Assembly (NCBI RefSeq): GCF_004010195.1
Contig: NC_057757.1
Coordinates: 2,318,131 to 2,382,130, forward strand
DNA: 64,000 bases
Direction: 5' to 3'
From: Chiloscyllium plagiosum
Lineage: Eukaryota
Shown here piece by piece: positions 3,802-24,277 of this stretch (position 1 is its first letter; every line of letters begins with the position of its first letter). Under the pieces are notes generated by a model. It had not been told where the DNA came from. It ran no database searches and saw only the letters and a list, made by a program, of their open reading frames with translations. The position numbers and the translations under genes were made by a program.

Positions 3802-4747
3802 TGTCATGGACTAGATCAGACCCCCCATAAATATTCTGTATTCATAAGGCAGCCAAGAGTTTACCTCCTTCTTATACTAGAGTCAAGTACCAGGCGCTAA
3901 GTTCCAGGTGCAATTCATTTGGTCAAACTACCAGGCTTGAAACAAAAACTCATTTTAATCTGATGCTTCAGGTAAAATACAACAAAAGAAAGAAAAAATT
4001 GGAATAATTTTACTCTATTGGCAAATCCAATAGAATAATAGATAACTAAACTTCAACTGTACTAATACAGTAACATGCCATAAACACACCCTTGGCAAAG
4101 GTGAGTTCAGTAAAATAGTTTAGATTAGATTCTCTACAGTGTGGAAACAGGCCCTTCAGCCCACACCGACCCTCCAAAGAGTAACTCACCCAGACCCATT
4201 TCCCTCTGACTAATGCATCTAACAACTACGGGCAATTTAGCACGGCCAATCCACCCTAACCTGCACATCTTTGGATTGTGGGAGGAAACCAGTGCACCCG
4301 GAGGAAACCCACGCAGACACGGGGAGAATGTGCAAACTCCACACAGACAGTCATCCAAGGCTGGAATCAAACCTGGGACCCTGGCATTGTGAGGCAGCAG
4401 TGCTAACCACTGAGCCGCCGTGCCGACCCAGATTGTCACACATCCAATTCTCTAGGCAAGGAGTGAAAAAAAATCCAGAGAAATTTCTGAGAGAGGGGAG
4501 CAGGGAGAGATGTACTGCAGCTTTCAAATTCAGGTTTAAGACCCCAGAAACAGCTACTGAAAAAAACTAAAACTAAACATCCGGGTTCTGGGAGAGCTTG
4601 ACCCCACCCGTTCAGGCTGCACCTATTGTTCCAGCTTCTAAAAATCCCAAGGCCTCACAAGCTGTTTGCTTTATTGGCTCCTCTGCCTCAATCTTCTTCC
4701 CAAAAGAAATGACAAAATACAATTCTTAAGGCCATAATATTGTCACA
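3802..4747. mobile_element. Solo LTR (TG...CA) carrying an HE1 SINE insertion
   Basis: TGTCATGG...TGTCACA ends with AAG on both flanks. It splits a CR1-type tail (ggagcagaatt|gctattcgaccc) and shares motifs with 14398-15700. Confidence 0.7.
4119..4429 (-). mobile_element. HE1-type V-SINE
   Basis: tRNA-like head (gtggctcagtggttagc...ggtttgattcc), V-domain tgtgtggagtttgcacattctccc, CR1-like tail. Confidence 0.88.
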
Positions 4748-4949
4748 AAGGCTATTCGACCCATTGGATCTACTCCACCATTCGATTACCCCATGCTCCT
4801 GCCTTCTCCCTGTAACCTTTGACCCCCTTTCTCGACAACCCTGTAGCATGTGGCATTAGAGATGCAGCTCCAGAAATGAATCGCAGGTTTCTAATTCCCT
4901 GTCAGACAGTCCCCACTGCCCTCAAGTGAAAAAATATTTCCTTATCACC

Positions 4950-12003: not shown

Positions 12004-12291
12004 TGTTATGGACCAGGCCAGACCACTCAAAACACCTTAATCAGGCAGTCCCACGTCATAATTTTGCAATTTCTTTCAGTAAGTGTACAGTGAAAATTAC
12101 CCGGAGTAAGTTAGGTAGGTCAACTACCAGGTTTCAAAACAGACAAAAATTACACAATTTACTCACAAAATCACACAATGAAACATACAGAACCCCTACA
12201 GAACTCAGTCTATCCAAAATAGGCTTAATTATGCTGTTCTGAATACACACAACACTCCCAATAAGGAAACCCTCTTAAAAACAGTAAAAAT
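12004..12291 (-). repeat. Truncated 5' LTR of the Gmr1-like element
   Basis: TGTTATGGACCAGGCCAGACC start next to the PBS. Matches the first ~290 bp of the other LTR copies, then breaks off. Confidence 0.82.
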
Positions 12292-12540
12292 AGATCGGAA
12301 CCAAAGTTGAACCCTTCATCTGTAAAGGCTCCCTGCTATAGGTTCTCAGTCTAGCCAAGGTACTGAGAAAACTTAAGGATGGAAGTCCAGAGTGAATTCT
12401 GTTGGAGATTGGTTCAATAATCACTGAAACAGCCGCACTGGTATCAATCTCCATTAGAACTGGGTGACCGTTTAACCAGGTATTTATTTCGATTGTTTCT
12501 GATTTGGATGTGGCGAAGCAAGATAACTGTTCCAAACCAG
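12292..12540 (-). mobile_element. Retropepsin fragment of a different Gypsy family
   Basis: ORF 12275-12535: LNGHPVLMEIDTSAAVSVI (degenerate DTG-type motif)...LRTYSREPL. Confidence 0.7.
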
Positions 12541-12679: not shown

Positions 12680-13318
12680 TGTTGTGGACCAGGCCAGACC
12701 ACTCAAAACATTCTTAAGCAGGCAGGCCAGACCATACCTTTGCAATTTCTTTCAGTAAGCGTACAGTGAAAATTACCCGGAGTAAGTTAGCGAGGTTGAC
12801 TACCAGGTTTTAAAACAGACAAAAATTTATTCACAAAATTACACAATGAAACATACAGAACCCCTACAGAACTCAGTCTATCCAAAATAGACTTAATGAT
12901 GCTGTTCCGAATACACACAACACTCCCAATAAGCAAACCCCCTTAAAAACAGTAAAAATGGAACAAATGCTTACATGTTGAAGTTAGAAGGACAGAAGGA
13001 CAGAAGGAGAGAGAGAGAGAGAGAGAGAGAGCATGTTTCAATACAGCTGGACTCCTAACTAGTTCTGGACTGAACTGCTCAGCTGGAGAGCTGACCACTC
13101 CCCTTTCATTATACAGGTCACTTCTAAAACATGACCACTTTGGCCTGAAGTCTCATCTGTTAACATGTAAACAAAAGGCCTCTCAATACCATTTAATCTC
13201 TGTACCAAACCAGTCTAATCGGAGCCAGCCCGTTACGACCCCTCTGAGAAAAACCAAGGACACAGTATCTTTAAGAAAAGGAACAGCTTTTAAGAGAAAC
13301 GAGACCAGCTTTGTGACA
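12680..13318 (-). repeat. Complete LTR copy of the same Gmr1-like family (TG...CA)
   Basis: TGTTGTGG...TGTGACA, with an internal (GA)n tract; high identity to 6453-7074. Confidence 0.88.
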
Positions 13319-14774
13319 CCCCACCATTGGCGGCCTTGTCTTTAGCTGCCTGGTTTGCCCTCCCTAGAAGTCTCTCCACCCTCTCTCATCTTTGGTGGCA
13401 TTCCTTCAAACCCATTCTTTCGGGCCAATCACCTGAGCCTCTTGTAAATCTCCTCAAAGCCCTTCACAGGATCCATCTAGATCAGGCCGGGGTCAAACAG
13501 CAGGGCTGATTTCGAGCCAACATGAGCTGGGCTGGGGAGACAGCAAATACTCCCTCCTACTTCTCAAAAAAAAGATGCATTTCTATAGCACCTGTAATGT
13601 AGCAAAACAGGCTGAGGCGAGGGAGTCAGTTCACTCAGTTGGCCAGATGGTGATGTGATGCCAACAGCATGGGTTCAATCCTCACATCAGCTGAGGCTAC
13701 CATAAAGATCCCACCTTCCTGATCTCTCCCTCCACCTGAGGTAGGGTGACCCTCAGGTTAAACCATCACCAGTCACCTCTCTCTCTTTTCCCTAGTGGGG
13801 TGGGGGAATTTCAAGACCAGGAGATAAATTTTTAAGGTGAGAGGAGAGAGATTTACATAGACACAAGGGACAACCTTTTTGTACAGAGGCTGATTAATGT
13901 GTGGAATGAAGGAAGTGGTGGATGTGGGTACAGTTGCAACATTTAAAAGACATTGGATAAGTTCATGAACGGGAAAGGTTTGGAGGGATATGGGCCAGGA
14001 GCAGGCAGCTGGCACTAGTTCAGTTTGGGATTACGGTCGGCATTGACTGTTTCGTGCTGTAGGGCTCTATGAAATGAAGCAGGCAAGTCATGAACCCAGA
14101 GCTTCTAGTCCAGCGTTACGGACAGTACCACTGTGATGCAAGACTACTTGATACCTTTTTGTGTGGTGACTCAGTGTTGCTCAGCATTAAACGTGGTTCC
14201 CCAAATATGGTGGTGATTGCAAATTGTGATGTTGAATTTCTGATTGTTCACAACAGTCCAAATCTGGCACCTGTGCCCTCCTGTCTCCCCACGGTTAGAC
14301 AGTTGGTCTGAACCATTCACCAGTTTCACTGGGGCTGGCTGCTTCACCAGCCCCTCTCATGGCAATGGGGTTTTTGGGCGACCGATGTTGTACCCTCTGT
14401 TATGCCTCAGTCCAAACCCCATCAAAACACATCAAGCAGACAGCCTACTTTTCATCTCATTTAAAGGCAATTGTAAGTGCTGCATTCCAGATGCGATTCG
14501 ATTGGTTCACACTTTAAGACAACTTTTCGCTTTAAGCAAAACACACTTTTATTCTTACAGCGCAGTTAAAACACAAACAAACATAAGAGAATTGGAATAA
14601 CTTTAACTCAACTGAAATACTTAACGAAATGATTTACCTATACCTCATCAACTGTTCCAATATGGCAGCATCCCATAAACACATCCTTGGCAAAGGCAAA
14701 TTCAGCAAAACAGTTTCGCTCACGTGCTGTCTCCAGTCATGGAGAAGGGAAAAGCGAAAGAATGAGTCTAGCAG

Positions 14775-14919
14775 CAGAGACAGAGCGAGAGAGAGAGAGA
14801 GAGACAGAGAGAGAGAAAGAGAAAAAGAGAGAGACAAAGAGAGACAGAGAGGGAGAGAGAGACCGAGAGAAAGACAGACAGAGAGACTGAGAGAGAGAGA
14901 CTGAGAGAGGGCGACAGAC

Positions 14920-14950
<31 letters not shown>

Positions 14951-14992
14951 CCGAGAGAGAGACCGAGAGAGAGAGAGAGAAAGAGAAAGAGA
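14775..14992. repeat. (GA/GACA)n microsatellite
   Basis: Direct inspection. Confidence 0.95.
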
Positions 14993-15087
14993 TGGCCTCA
15001 CCAGTACCTGTACAAGTGAAACATCACCCTCCCCTGGTGTCGTACCGAGCTCCCACACATGACATCAACAAGCCTGCAGCTCCTTAC

Positions 15088-15189
15088 CCATCCATGGCTT
15101 CCTCAATCTTCTTCTTCCGCAGCTCAATGAGTTCGGGGGTCTCCATGCCAGCCGGGACAGAGGAGAAACCCCCTGGGGTAATGAGCCCA
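15088..15189 (-). pseudogene. SF3B2: Isolated exon of splicing factor SF3B2 (SAP145), 102 bp, phase 2->2, with no other SF3B2 exons seen
   Basis: (TC)n-TGCAG acceptor, GTAAGG donor. Translates [33 protein letters not shown](G), which I recognise as the conserved SF3B2 C-terminal region. Confidence 0.85.
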
Positions 15190-15193
15190 CTGC

Positions 15194-15425
15194 AGAGAGA
15201 GAGAGAGAGAGACAGAGTGTCAACAAGGACAGATCAGAAGAGAGACAGAGAGACAGACAGAGAGACAGACACAGACTGAGAGAGGGCGACAGACAGAGAC
15301 AGAGAGACAGAGACAGAGAGACAGAGACAGAGAGACAGAGACAGAGAGACAGAGACAGAGAGACAGAGAGACAGAGACAGAGACAGAGAGACAGAGACAG
15401 AGAGAGAGAGAGACAGCGAGAGAGA
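15194..15425. repeat. (GA/GACA)n microsatellite
   Basis: Direct inspection. Confidence 0.95.
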
Positions 15426-17349
15426 TGTATCTAGCAGCTCCAACTCCAAAGAAACTGCAATGAAAACAAAAACTAAAAGCCTGGCTCTGTGAGAGCCTGA
15501 CCCCACCTCCTTTTGTCTTCATTTTTTTTTAAAGAAAAGGACCCAAACTTTGCTTTCCCCAGAACTGACACCTCAGCACAAGGTTCACAACACCTGGTCT
15601 CAGGAGAAACAGGCCAGACTCTTGTCGGGGGGGGGGGGAGAAAATGAGTCCACCCACAGTGTCTCAGATAGTTCTGCTAAACACTGCCATGTCATATAGC
15701 CTGCTCACAACAGTGTGGATTGGAGCACATTTTCCACACACAGGTCACAAACTTTGTCATACATTGCTAAAAACAATGGCTTTATTAACGGTGAGAGTCC
15801 CGAAAGGTAAATATTTTACGCGGCACTCGGAGCTACGGCACAGGTGCCAGTTCAATCAGCAAGTGTGCCAGCCCTCGGTGGAGATTGCCCACCTTTGTGT
15901 TTTTCCTGGATAAGAGCCTCAGAATTGTTTCTCCTTTGTGCTATGTCGGCAGCGCAATAGGAATGCGCCTTTGACCGCTGCTCTGGGCCACAGAGTGAGG
16001 GAACACGCAGTTTCACAACTGGCGCAAATGTAGAAACAGCTTTTATTTAGGAAACATGTCGGTCCCTGACCATTGGGCAGCAAGCACTTCCTCGCACTCT
16101 CTCTCACTGGGGCCTGGAAGTTGGGGGTCAAGGCCTCCAATCCAGAGACTAGAACAACAGCATTCAGGCTGACATCCATCCCCGGTGTGTGACTGAGGGG
16201 GTGCAGCACAGCTGAGAGTGCCCTCTTTCGAGCAAGGGGGCAGAGAAAGAAACCCTCGTCATCCTGGGGCCAATATTTATTCTCCAGGCGACATCGTGAG
16301 CTTGGAACATTCGATGGCGATCACGGAGCTGTTTTGCAGGAGCTTGCTGTGCATGGATTTCTTGGCCCTGTTTCCGTCAATACCACAATCGAAAGGTACT
16401 TGAAAATGCTTTGAGGTGGACAGGCCAGTAACGAGTGGGCGACGTGAAGGAAACATCCACTTGAAGTGCCATCACAGTTCCCAAGCAGCTGTCATCATGA
16501 CGGCCTCTCCCCTGAAAGGCACAGTTCCTGGGTCCAATCCTTGCTCCAGATATTTGAGTGCAGAGGGAATGCTGCGTTGCCCAGGGATGCCACCTTCCAG
16601 ACGAACTACCCTCCCTAGGTAGTGGGAAGCAGAAGAGGGTCATAGACCGATGCACAGCCTGACTTCAAAGTCATTTGGGAGGGCAGGGATATGTGCTCCC
16701 TGGTGCACTGGGGACCTGGATTTATCATTCCATTCACATTATTTTTTTGTCCAAAATAAACAGACAACCTGGTCGCCCTAATCGCATTGTCGCTTCCTGT
16801 GTGCCAACTAACCACCACATCTCCAACCACACAATATTAACTCCACTTCCGCTCAAAAAAGCGCGTCGTCATTGGCTGCGAAGCGTCTGTGGCATCCTTG
16901 GGCCGTGAAAAGGCGCTACAGAAATGCAAGGCCGCCTTTTGGTGCCTGGGAGCAGGTGCATTGTTATTGGCCCCCTGGTCTGCGTTTGTGACAAGCTGGA
17001 GAAAAATAAAAGGGAAGCAGAAAAAAAACAAGGCGCACATCTCAATCGAGGATCAGGTTTTACTGCTACCCTCACCTCCCTCAGTTTAAACGAACACCCG
17101 AACCATCCTCACATTTACCTGAGGGAAGTGACACTGAACTGCGTGCACTCTGGTATCATGGCAACAAGCTCATGCCTCATCTGAGAGTTGAGCTGATGAT
17201 GATTGCCAGCAGGACGTATGGGGGAGCTGGGGTTGAGTGGGATTCGAAGCTAAATGCAAGCTGTCACATGGTAGTACAGAGATTGAAAATAGAGTACGCC
17301 GCTAAACATTTTGTTTCGCATTTATCAGGACCAGTGCAAGAGTGTCAAA

Positions 17350-17975
17350 TTTCAAACAATCACAACAATGCCATCTACTGCATCTGTTGCACCCAGTGTG
17401 ATCCCCTCTACATCGGGGAGACAGGATGCTTGCGGATTGTTTCAGAGAACATCTCTGGGACATCCACACCCACCAACCCCACCGCCCCGTGGCTGAACAC
17501 TTCAACTCCCCCTCCCACTCCGTCAAGGACATGCAGATCCTGGGCCTCCTCCACCGCCAAACCGTTACCACCCGACGTCTGGAGGAGGAACGCCTCATAT
17601 TCCGCCTTGGGACCCTGCAACCACACGGGATCAATGTGGATTTCAGCAGCTTCCTCATTTCCCCTTCCCCCCACATTATCCCAGTCCCAAGCCTCCAACT
17701 CGGCAGCGCCCTCTGGACCCGTCCATCACTGCCCCCTCTGACCTATCACCCTCTCCTTCACCTTCATCCACCTATCACTTTCCCAGCTACCTCTCTCCAA
17801 CCAGGACCCCCCCTCCCATTTATCTCTCAGGCTTAACCCACAAGCCTCATTCCTGATGAAGGGCTTATGCCTGAAACGTCGATTCTCCTGCTCCTCAGAT
17901 GCTGCCTGACCTGCTGAGATTTTCCAGGAACACACTCTCCACTCTGATCTCCAGCATCTGCAGAACTCACCTTCT
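17350..17975 (+). mobile_element. Penelope-like element 3' end: GIY-YIG endonuclease remnant plus pseudo-LTR with hammerhead core
   Basis: IYCICCTQC..LYIGETG...FREHL...VAEHFNSPSHS...EERLIFRLGTLQPHGIN, followed by CTGATGA-AGGGCTTATGCCT-GAAACGTC at 17853-17880. Confidence 0.88.
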
Positions 17976-19028: not shown

Positions 19029-19110
19029 CTATTTCACATTGCGTACATTCATCAGCTTCTGTCTTCTGCCTAGGGGTACCTCCTCCAAATTAAGGCCATG
19101 GTTACTGGCT
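19029..19110 (-). CDS. GUCY2D: Guanylyl cyclase last coding exon (phase 2 start, TAG stop at 19031-19029); not in the ORF track
   Basis: (TC)n...CAG acceptor. ASNHGLNLEEVPLGRRQKLMNVRNVK* resembles the SNHG.SL.EIP..RR.KL C-terminus of GC-E/GUCY2D-type cyclases. Confidence 0.85.
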
Positions 19111-21540: not shown

Positions 21541-24277
21541 CCGTGTGGTCTCCATGTATGTGACATCATTAGTGTTGTGAAATTTGAGTTCCAAAGATTC
21601 ATCAGCCACCGAGTGAAAGGTTTGTCAACATCTTGAGTGGCCTACTCCTTATTCTGAGACTGCATCCCCCGGTTCCAGACTCTCCAGTCAGCGAGAAGGG
21701 AAATAAAAACAGACATTGTGTCTATATCCACCCTGTAACACCCCGTAAGAATTTTGTAAGTGTCCATGCGCTCGTCTCTCAGATGTTGAATACAGGCCCC
21801 CGTTTCCTCAATCTTTCTTTCTGAGGGGAAATGGCCATCTCACCCATACTCTCACTATTGCTCAAAGAAAAAAACAAAGAATAATGAACAAAGAAAGTTT
21901 ACAGCCCAGGAACAGCCCTCCAAGCCTGAACCGATCCAAATCCACCGCCCAATTCCTAAGGATCTGTATCCCTCTGCTCCCCACCTACTCATGCATCTGT
22001 CCAGAGGCACCTTAAATGCATCTANNNNNNNNNNNNNNNNNNNNNNNNNNNNNNNNNNNNNNNNNNNNNNNNNNNNNNNNNNNNNNNNNNNNNNNNNNNN
22101 NNNNNNNNNNNNNNNNNNNNNNNNNNNNNNNNNNNNNNNNNNNNNNNNNNNNNNNNNNNNNNNNNNNNNNNNNNNNNNNNNNNNNNNNNNNNNNNNNNNN
22201 NNNNNNNNNNNNNNNNNNNNNNNNNNNNNNNNNNNNNNNNNNNNNNNNNNNNNNNNNNNNNNNNNNNNNNNNNNNNNNNNNNNNNNNNNNNNNNNNNNNN
22301 NNNNNNNNNNNNNNNNNNNNNNNNNNNNNNNNNNNNNNNNNNNNNNNNNNNNNNNNNNNNNNNNNNNNNNNNNNNNNNNNNNNNNNNNNNNNNNNNNNNN
22401 NNNNNNNNNNNNNNNNNNNNNNNNNNNNNNNNNNNNNNNNNNNNNNNNNNNNNNNNNNNNNNNNNNNNNNNNNNNNNNNNNNNNNNNNNNNNNNNNNNNN
22501 NNNNNNNNNNNNNNNNNNNNNNNNNNNNNNNNNNNNNNNNNNNNNNNNNNNNNNNNNNNNNNNNNNNNNNNNNNNNNNNNNNNNNNNNNNNNNNNNNNNN
22601 NNNNNNNNNNNNNNNNNNNNNNNNNNNNNNNNNNNNNNNNNNNNNNNNNNNNNNNNNNNNNNNNNNNNNNNNNNNNNNNNNNNNNNNNNNNNNNNNNNNN
22701 NNNNNNNNNNNNNNNNNNNNNNNNNNNNNNNNNNNNNNNNNNNNNNNNNNNNNNNNNNNNNNNNNNNNNNNNNNNNNNNNNNNNNNNNNNNNNNNNNNNN
22801 NNNNNNNNNNNNNNNNNNNNNNNNNNNNNNNNNNNNNNNNNNCCCAGATCCAACCCTCCAACTCGGCACCGCCCTCATGACCTGTTCCACCTGTTCATCT
22901 TCCTTCCCACCTATCCACTCCACCCTCCTCTCCAACCTAACACCAATCCCCTCACCTCCATCCACCTATCGCACTCTCATCTAGCTAACAGTGGGGAAGG
23001 AGCTGTTCTTGAACCTACTGCAGCTAAAAGGTGGGGCTGAGCTGCCTCCTAGAACCATCCACTGACCCACAGTGACATTAGCTAGGGAGGGAGTTTGAGA
23101 AGTTTGAAAGAATGGAGATACATTTCCAATTCTGGATGGTCAGTGGCTCAGAGGACAACTTACAGGGGCTGACGTTCCCACGGAGATGCTGTCTTTGTCC
23201 TTCTAGACGGTAACAATCATGGGCTTGGCAGAGTCTGTCTAAGGAGTCTTGGTGAATTTCTGCAATGCATCTTATAGATGGTAGAGACTGCTGCTACTGA
23301 GTGTCGGTGAGGGAGGGAGTGGATGTGATGTCAATCAAACGGGAGGCTCCTTTGCCCCTGGATAGTGTCGAGCTTCTTAAGTGTTGTTGGAGCTGCCCCC
23401 ACCCAGGGCAAGCGGGGAGTATTTCCTCACACTCCTGGCTTGGGCCTTGTCGATGGTGGGACAGGCTTTGGGGTGTCAGGAAGGGAGTTACTCACTGGAG
23501 TATTCCTAGCCTCTGATGTACTCTTCTATATGATGAGCCCAGTTGAGCTTTTGCTCATCGGTAAGCCCCCAGGAGAGGAATATTCAGTGATGGTGACACC
23601 ACTGGGTGTCAAGAAGCTATGTGCAGTTTCTCCCTTGTCAGAGATGGTCATTTCTGTCTCCCAGAGTGCCATCCAGTCTGTCTCTCACAAACTGCTCTTT
23701 CACCACATTCCCGGAGGACTTTTCTCCTTTAGATTTTTTAAAATCTAATTCCCTTTCGAAGGCCACGATTGAATCTGCCGCCACCACACGCACTCAGGCA
23801 GCACGCTCCAAGTTGCTCACACCTACCTCACTAAAAAGCAAACTTGTCCTCCTGCTGCCTCTAGCTCCTTCGCCAATCACTGACAGACCGTGCCCCCAGT
23901 TGCGGAAGCAGTAAGAACTTGGCATACTGCTGCATGATGGGACATTTGATCAAGGGAAAAAGGAAGGGCTTTTGCCCGAAACGTCGATTTTCCTGCTCCT
24001 CGGATGCTGCCTGTCCTGCTGTTATTTTCCTGCACTACTCTAATCTTGACTCTAATCTCCGGCATCTGCAGCACCCGCTTTCACCAAGGTAAAAGATATA
24101 CGGCTCTCACCTTTTGTGGAAAAATACTGCTGGAGACAAAGACTGAGGTTGTGTAATTATAATTTGACGAAATATAGGGAGCGTATCCTGAGCTTCTAAT
24201 TTTCTCCGATTGAGCAACAACAAACAACAAAGGCATTAGGCACTGTGTTTATCTTAATCTTGAACTACTACATTCAA

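What the first reader, a model, noticed from the sequence alone, without database searches (positions are those of the whole stretch)
14990..15230. Orphan, intact SF3B2 exon embedded in the GA-microsatellite of a solo LTR
Seen: a 102-bp exon with intact AG/GTAAG sites encodes [33 protein letters not shown]. It is flanked on both sides by long GA/GACA tracts and sits where the related solo LTR at 3802-4747 has only a short GA stretch. I found no other SF3B2 exon in the window. A normal SF3B2 gene here would need its upstream exons interleaved with, or beyond, the same-strand cyclase gene. Inference: either microsatellite-mediated capture of a genomic (intron-flanked, not retroposed) gene fragment, or an assembly mis-join between GA tracts. 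It is a symmetric phase-2 exon on the same strand, about 3.8 kb downstream of the cyclase stop. The cyclase's last coding intron is also phase 2, so an in-frame chimeric splice is formally possible.
Basis: partly seen in the sequence, partly recalled or inferred. Interest (0 to 1): 0.72.

Follow-up and report, generated by a model that had tools for sequence, protein, structure and literature searches.

The report
Misplaced splicing-gene exon in shark assembly
The stray piece is a genuine exon of the shark's splicing-factor gene SF3B2, the very exon that is missing at an assembly gap in that gene and that RNA joins only to that gene's neighbouring exons, so it is likely a genome-assembly error rather than a captured gene fragment.

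Summary
Window 15088-15189 (-) is a 102-nt phase-2/2 SF3B2 exon (34/34 to human) with intron stubs. It sits in the GA tract of an LTR-like repeat whose spacer is 11-107 nt in 17 of 19 other copies, against 650 here.

It is the only copy found in the assembly. The real SF3B2 gene lies on two small contigs, and C93102 has a 4,455-N gap exactly where this exon belongs. Spliced contigs in 3 of 3 runs that have them join it to the C93102 exons on both sides, none to the cyclase. Intron-bearing contigs in 3 runs from three studies leave the window at 14988 into sequence the assembly lacks.

Best reading: mis-placement by the assembler through GA repeats (0.85). A recent real DNA patch (0.12) is not excluded, because nothing spanning the tracts could be tested. 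The cyclase chimera has no support.

The parts
15088..15189 (-). SF3B2 coding exon, 102 nt, phase 2/2 (human residues 743-776; residues 737-771 of shark protein P0007)
   Evidence: joined to C93102 exons on both sides in spliced contigs
14988..15087 (-). First ~100 nt of the SF3B2 intron that follows the exon (GTAAG donor); the true intron continues into sequence absent from the assembly
   Evidence: intron-bearing contigs of X9 and X2, X3, X4 match it and leave the window at 14988; the next 30 nt are not found in G000
15190..15240 (-). End of the preceding SF3B2 intron: acceptor, (CT)n polypyrimidine tract and a short non-repeat stretch; the right edge of the insert is inferred to lie between about 15240 and 15273
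   Evidence: sequence; absent from other repeat copies; edge not resolved because the lay skipped 15186-15245 as repeat
14776..14987 (.). Left GA/GACA tract
15241..15425 (.). Right GA/GACA tract
14898..14924 (+). 27-nt tract word that recurs at 15273-15299 on the other side of the insert and nowhere else in the assembly
   Evidence: 2 matches in G000, both here
14398..14775 (.). Left part of an old, abundant LTR-like repeat (starts TGTTATG)
   Evidence: best other copies 75-82% identical
15426..15619 (.). Right part of the same repeat; its end is not clearly preserved in this copy
3802..4748 (.).
19029..19110 (-). Last conserved coding exon and stop of the retinal guanylyl cyclase 2-like gene (context, not part of the insert)

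Best explanation
The ~250-nt piece is the shark's own SF3B2 exon with its intron stubs, likely pasted into this repeat's GA tract by the assembler rather than present here in the animal. Shown: it is the only copy found in the assembly; its home gene has an N gap at exactly this exon; mRNA contigs run from the upstream C93102 exon through it into the downstream C93102 exon; intron-bearing contigs leave the window at 14988. Inferred: the SF3B2 locus is GC-rich and repeat-rich and broke into small contigs. The orphaned fragment ends in a (CT)n/(GA)n run. A gap-closing or local-assembly step working through the unusually long GA tract of this repeat copy picked the fragment up and re-entered the tract, which would explain the 27-nt word on both sides. 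The real locus would be an ordinary repeat copy with an expanded microsatellite, downstream of the cyclase stop, and SF3B2 an ordinary intact gene elsewhere.
For: (1) One DNA match in G000, the window itself; the protein search finds this exon only here. (2) SF3B2 is split over C97290 (residues 209-616 of P0007) and C93102 (617-736, a 4,455-N gap, 772-805, 866-889). The window exon supplies 737-771 and the phases fit. (3) Spliced contigs of X1, X2 and X4 (3 of 3 runs with spliced contigs, two studies) carry the C93102 upstream exon behind 15192 and the downstream exon before 15091/15088 (matched to C93102). (4) All 4 runs that cover the left edge depart from the window at 14988: X2, X3, X4 with the same 30-nt loose end and 226-784 letters beyond, depth 0 at 14980-14987; X9 with 2 unaligned letters. 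That 30-mer is absent from G000, as expected if it lies in the gap. (5) No fixed divergence away from the edge: the one listed difference, A/G at 15090, is an allele, since spliced X4 contigs carry the window's A. (6) The locus is poorly assembled generally: residues 806-865 find no match in G000. (7) Cyclase and SF3B2 lie on scaffolds of different length in C. punctatum, H. ocellatum, Stegostoma and Rhincodon. An H. ocellatum cyclase model maps collinearly across the insert site without the peptide. (8) Split genes of this kind are a described error class (PMC9516821).
Against: No read or contig spanning either GA tract was examined, so the repeat without the insert has not been seen. A near-identical real duplicate could also leave one gap and one assembled copy. 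The gap is weak evidence alone, because other exons of this gene are missing too. X1, X2 and X4 behave as RNA runs and report only the transcribed locus. X3, the likeliest DNA run, has depth 2 here and could miss a second copy. The left edge shows at most a few shared letters rather than tract-to-tract overlap, which fits template switching as well as a mis-join. Only 8 window letters left of 14988 were in the lay, and the loose end begins with GA-rich letters. A short indel followed by more GA sequence, with the junction further left, is therefore not excluded. The two raw-read runs gave no reads at all.
Confidence: 0.85

Rival explanations
1. A very recent real duplicate: a break in the expanded GA tract was patched with about 250 nt copied from the SF3B2 gene or its unspliced RNA (class 2 TSIP or gap-filling type). 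It would be private to the sequenced animal or polymorphic, with the parental exon hidden in the gap.
For: Short or no homology at the left edge. A locus-unique 27-mer on both sides, as a switch back into the tract would leave. This copy's tract is far longer than in 17 of 17 measurable relatives, hence plausibly fragile. Such patches are known: 25-30 TSIPs per person (PMC5110952 abstract) and gap-filling captures with microhomology (PMC8277862 passages).
Against: It needs two copies and the assembly shows one, with the gap at exactly this exon. None of 4 runs covering the left edge shows the window's junction. Single-copy gap-filling captures are mostly from nearby DNA, and the authors discard cases with gaps at the parental locus. 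Here the parent is on another scaffold in four relatives.
Confidence: 0.12
2. A fixed capture used as an in-frame extra exon of the retinal guanylyl cyclase, spliced from the penultimate cyclase exon in phase 2.
For: Same strand, intact splice sites and matching phase. An H. ocellatum gene model suggests that cyclase transcripts can extend past this site.
Against: Every spliced loose end shown leads to SF3B2 exons. 0 of 47 proteins from the cyclase search and cluster carry the peptide. The cyclase C-terminus at 19110-19029 is conserved in relatives. No divergence from the expressed allele.
Confidence: 0.01
3. The SF3B2 gene really lies here, interleaved with the cyclase, or its exon is trans-spliced from here.
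For: The exon is single-copy in the assembly and is used in mRNA.
Against: The C93102 gap is 4.5 kb and its edges share 0 of 207 20-mers with the window. Intron-bearing contigs from runs that also hold the spliced mRNA leave the window at 14988. The genes are on different scaffolds in relatives.
Confidence: 0.02

Closest known systems
'Fragmented' false gene loss in short-read vertebrate assemblies (Kim et al. 2022, PMC9516821; section 9 and passages read)
   Same: Exons of one gene on different scaffolds, with an assembly gap at the parental site, in a GC-rich and repeat-rich locus.
   Different: Here a single exon is embedded without a gap inside an unrelated 10-Mb scaffold, so it mimics a biological insertion. 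No better assembly of this species could be compared.
Single-copy Pack-TIRs made by gap-filling (Tan et al. 2021, PMC8277862; passages read)
   Same: Intron-bearing host DNA in the middle of an old transposon copy, long after its mobility; possible microhomology.
   Different: The host is LTR-like, not a TIR transposon. The parent is not nearby. The parental locus has a gap, which is an exclusion criterion in that study.
Class 2 templated sequence insertion polymorphisms (Onozawa and Aplan 2016, PMC5110952; abstract read)
   Same: A short distant fragment at a break-prone site, with no poly(A) tail seen.
   Different: TSIPs have an intact donor and junction-spanning support; neither is shown here.
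LTR-mediated retrocopies (Tan et al. 2016, PMC5131818; passages read)
   Same: A gene fragment flanked by LTR-element sequence.
   Different: Those are mRNA copies replacing internal retrotransposon sequence of active elements. This piece keeps its introns, sits inside one ~630-nt LTR-like unit, and the family is old (best copies 75-82% alike).

Membership tests
Fragmented gene / assembly error | Exons of one gene hit different scaffolds | tested here: met
   C97290, C93102 and C48
Fragmented gene / assembly error | Gap at the parental site of the displaced exon; only one copy in the assembly | tested here: met
   4,455 N between residues 736 and 772; single match
Fragmented gene / assembly error | Independent data give the uninterrupted gene | tested here: met
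   mRNA level only: spliced contigs in X1, X2, X4
Fragmented gene / assembly error | Long reads show the recipient site without the insert | not testable with these tools
   no listed run was labelled long-read; nothing spanning the tracts was laid
Pack-TIR gap-filling capture | Host is a TIR DNA transposon | tested here: not met
   direct TG...CA-type ends in relatives, LTR-like
Pack-TIR gap-filling capture | Parental copy present, without a sequencing gap | tested here: not met
   criterion from PMC8277862
Pack-TIR gap-filling capture | Microhomology at the breakpoints | tested here: inconclusive
   a few GA letters shared at 14988; exact edge and right junction unresolved
Class 2 TSIP | Donor intact plus a second copy, with junction-spanning reads | tested here: inconclusive
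   0 of 4 runs covering the left edge show the junction, but at most one looks like genomic DNA and at depth 2
Class 2 TSIP | Polymorphic presence and absence among individuals | not testable with these tools
   needs genomic reads or PCR across the tracts
LTR-mediated retrocopy | Introns removed | tested here: not met
   intron stubs on both sides
LTR-mediated retrocopy | Insert replaces internal retrotransposon sequence between discontinuous flanks | tested here: not met
   the two halves are contiguous parts of one unit
Solo LTR (host repeat) | TG...CA ends and target-site duplication | tested here: inconclusive
   TG start at 14398; CA-type ends in most relatives; 4-nt duplication in 2 of 19; window 3' end unclear
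Solo LTR (host repeat) | Same unit flanks a full-length retrotransposon elsewhere | not tested
   no search made

The most novel reading that the evidence does not exclude
The insert is real: a break in an expanded microsatellite was patched with a complete, splice-ready SF3B2 exon and its own splice signals. It would sit inside the region that extended retinal guanylyl cyclase transcripts cross, as a brand-new polymorphic exon-shuffling substrate in a shark. Its actual use in cyclase mRNA is far less likely (about 0.01).
Probability: 0.12. Interest if true: 0.45.

Novelty: not a real feature. Interest (0 to 1): 0.08.

Why it matters
As an artefact it matters for data quality only. In this assembly a conserved exon can sit seamlessly, with no N, inside a GA tract on the wrong scaffold, so 'orphan exon in a microsatellite' calls from it need a check for a gap at the parental gene. 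It also supplies the missing piece for a correct SF3B2 model. If the insertion were real, it would be a caught-in-the-act case of DNA-patch exon shuffling, a known process, shown in a new lineage.

Tried and rejected
Raw RNA runs X22 and X23: 0 reads laid on 14985-15245 (2% and 6% of the runs read), so no test.

Word shares: X1 holds 0.66 of the 152 sampled words of 14400-15900 but no intronic part of the insert. By my arithmetic it must cover much of the flanks. This hints that flank RNA lacks the insert, but a hole in contigs proves nothing and I do not count it.

Contig depth could not be used as copy number, because no single-copy reference lay in the same stretch.

The 30-nt true neighbour was sought in G000 with 1 mismatch: 0 matches. 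This is consistent with the gap but is not proof.

A screen for cyclase-SF3B2 chimeras flagged five proteins. All five are SF3B2 cluster members loaded; restricted to the 47 cyclase-search proteins the count is 0.

The second PSP-domain hit, on C25, was not examined; from recall it is probably the other PSP protein, ZCCHC8.

The duplicated 27-mer does not separate artefact from template switching.

A Pfam scan of candidate cyclase frames failed on a coordinate slip and was replaced by a homologue search.

Literature: no paper holds SF3B2 + shark + duplication (one search). The gap-closing search was seen as a listing only and gave nothing specific. Supplements were not consulted.

Full report
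What is there. Window 15088-15189 on the minus strand is a 102-nt exon with a (CT)n-TGCAG acceptor and a GTAAGG donor. Its peptide is identical to human SF3B2 residues 743-776 (34/34). The 33-residue core is identical in 13 of 17 cartilaginous-fish-type SF3B2 entries checked; three of the four misses end before this exon and one was not inspected. About 100 nt of the following intron and about 50 nt of the preceding one come with it. GA/GACA tracts flank it at 14776-14992 and 15194-15425. The host is an abundant old repeat: 3,900 first-look candidates, 40 scored, best other copies 75-82% identical. In 17 of the 19 copies fetched the two halves are 11-107 nt apart, against 650 nt here; two copies lacked a usable right anchor. 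The unit is about 620-660 nt with TG...CA-type ends, so LTR-like. A target-site duplication was seen in only 2 of 19 copies. The neighbouring gene is a retinal guanylyl cyclase 2-like gene; its 100%-identical database protein is labelled a bamboo shark, Chiloscyllium plagiosum. Its stop is 3.84 kb from the exon and its last coding exon starts in phase 2.

Where the rest of SF3B2 is. The insert has one DNA match in the 3.56-Gb assembly, itself. Domain searches put SF3B2 on two small contigs, C97290 (20 kb) and C93102 (11.8 kb). Against shark protein P0007, C97290 covers residues 209-616, and C93102 covers 617-736, 772-805 and 866-889. The window exon covers 737-771. In C93102 a 4,455-N gap begins two bases after the donor of the exon ending at residue 736 and ends about 190 nt before the exon starting at 772. 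The phases of the three exons fit. A protein search with the last 162 residues found this exon only in the window and found no match for residues 806-865 anywhere. The locus is thus poorly assembled in general; it is GC-rich (0.51-0.54 against 0.465 for the window) and full of tandem repeats. The gap edges share 0 of 207 20-mers with the window. Cyclase and SF3B2 proteins sit on scaffolds of different length in four related sharks.

What independent sequencing shows. Of 24 runs listed I laid seven. The two raw-read runs gave nothing. X1, X2 and X4 hold spliced contigs. In all three, the loose end behind 15192 is the C93102 upstream exon and the loose end before 15091/15088 is the C93102 downstream exon, the latter with one base different in X4 (compared). 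No loose end leads to the cyclase; two of X4's ten records were not shown in the pieces table. X2, X3 and X4, from three studies, also hold intron-bearing contigs. All three match the insert down to 14988 and then continue for 226-784 letters, starting with the same 30-nt sequence unlike the window, with depth 0 at 14980-14987. X9's contig likewise has two unaligned letters there. That 30-mer is absent from the assembly. The only listed substitution, A/G at 15090, is synonymous and allelic: X1, X2, X3 and X9 point to G, while spliced X4 contigs carry the window's A. One further unlisted mismatch is common to the four intron-bearing contigs and, by inference, lies next to the 14988 edge. So the insert is indistinguishable from the expressed gene and is cut off from its true neighbour.

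Mechanism. The most likely account is mis-placement by the assembler (0.85). Shown: single copy, gap at the home site, mRNA continuity, and departure at the left edge. Inferred: the orphaned fragment, ending in a GA/CT run, was drawn into the unusually long GA tract of this repeat copy during gap closing or local assembly. A 27-nt tract word occurs exactly twice in the genome, once on each side of the insert, which fits re-entry into the same tract. That gap closers can mis-fill through microsatellites is my own background knowledge; the one search on it (listing only) gave nothing specific. Split genes across scaffolds are a quantified error class in older vertebrate assemblies (PMC9516821, section 9 and passages).

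What stands against it. Nothing spanning either tract was examined, so the empty site has not been seen. A near-identical real duplicate could also collapse to one assembled copy plus a gap. X1, X2 and X4 behave as RNA and report only the transcribed locus; X3 has depth 2. The left edge shows at most a few shared letters, which is what template switching leaves (PMC8277862 and PMC5131818, passages). Only 8 window letters left of 14988 were laid, so a short indel with the true junction further left is possible. I therefore keep 0.12 for a recent real patch of the class 2 TSIP kind (PMC5110952, abstract). The Pack-TIR authors discard cases with gaps at the parental locus, which would remove this one. 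LTR-mediated retroposition fails on the retained introns and the age of the family.

The chimera idea. Phase agreement is real but unremarkable. 0 of 47 proteins from the cyclase search and cluster carry the peptide. An H. ocellatum cyclase model maps to 19109-19047, 16993-16818 and 13476-13432, crossing the insert site inside an intron without the exon. The cyclase's penultimate coding exon is not found in the window and probably lies in the N gap at 22025-22842.

Verdict. One paper search found nothing on SF3B2 duplication in sharks. Three look-ups in earlier findings showed no note of this case. Interest 0.08.

Noticed in passing
window 22025-22842: The cyclase's penultimate coding exon (about 30 residues, present in C. 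punctatum, H. ocellatum, Stegostoma and Rhincodon proteins) has no match in the window and probably lies in this 818-N gap; the database model P0121 ends without it and without the true C-terminus.
   Followed up: partly
window 16993-16818 and 13476-13432 (-): An H. ocellatum cyclase model has a lineage-specific C-terminal extension that maps here; the first segment carries stops and a frame change in this window, while the last 15 residues are identical. Probably non-coding 3' exons of an extended transcript.
   Followed up: partly
G000:C93102:209-4496 (L009): SF3B2 residues 806-865 are missing with no N gap, in a stretch filled by long tandem arrays, and have no match elsewhere in G000: likely a collapsed repeat that lost the exons.
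   Followed up: partly
proteins P0168, P0173 (C. punctatum SF3B2 models): Both end at residue 691/670 by running into the intron after the 'ALEFQ' exon, just before the region studied here, so this part of SF3B2 seems hard to assemble or annotate in the sister species too; Mustelus and Cetorhinus entries are also partial and on small contigs.
   Followed up: no
window 15090 and first base of the next SF3B2 exon (C93102:4598): Two linked synonymous alleles across the exon junction appear in mRNA contigs; the window exon matches one haplotype and the C93102 exon the other.
   Followed up: no
window 12005-12340 and 12682-13320: Two further neighbouring TG...CA-type repeat units, one partial and one with a (GA)12 run at 13007-13031; they did not match the host repeat.
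   Followed up: no
   Followed up: no
window 17010-17741 (+): A 243-codon stop-free frame with a CxxC-like motif, resembling (from recall) the GIY-YIG end of a Penelope-like element; not scanned.
   Followed up: no
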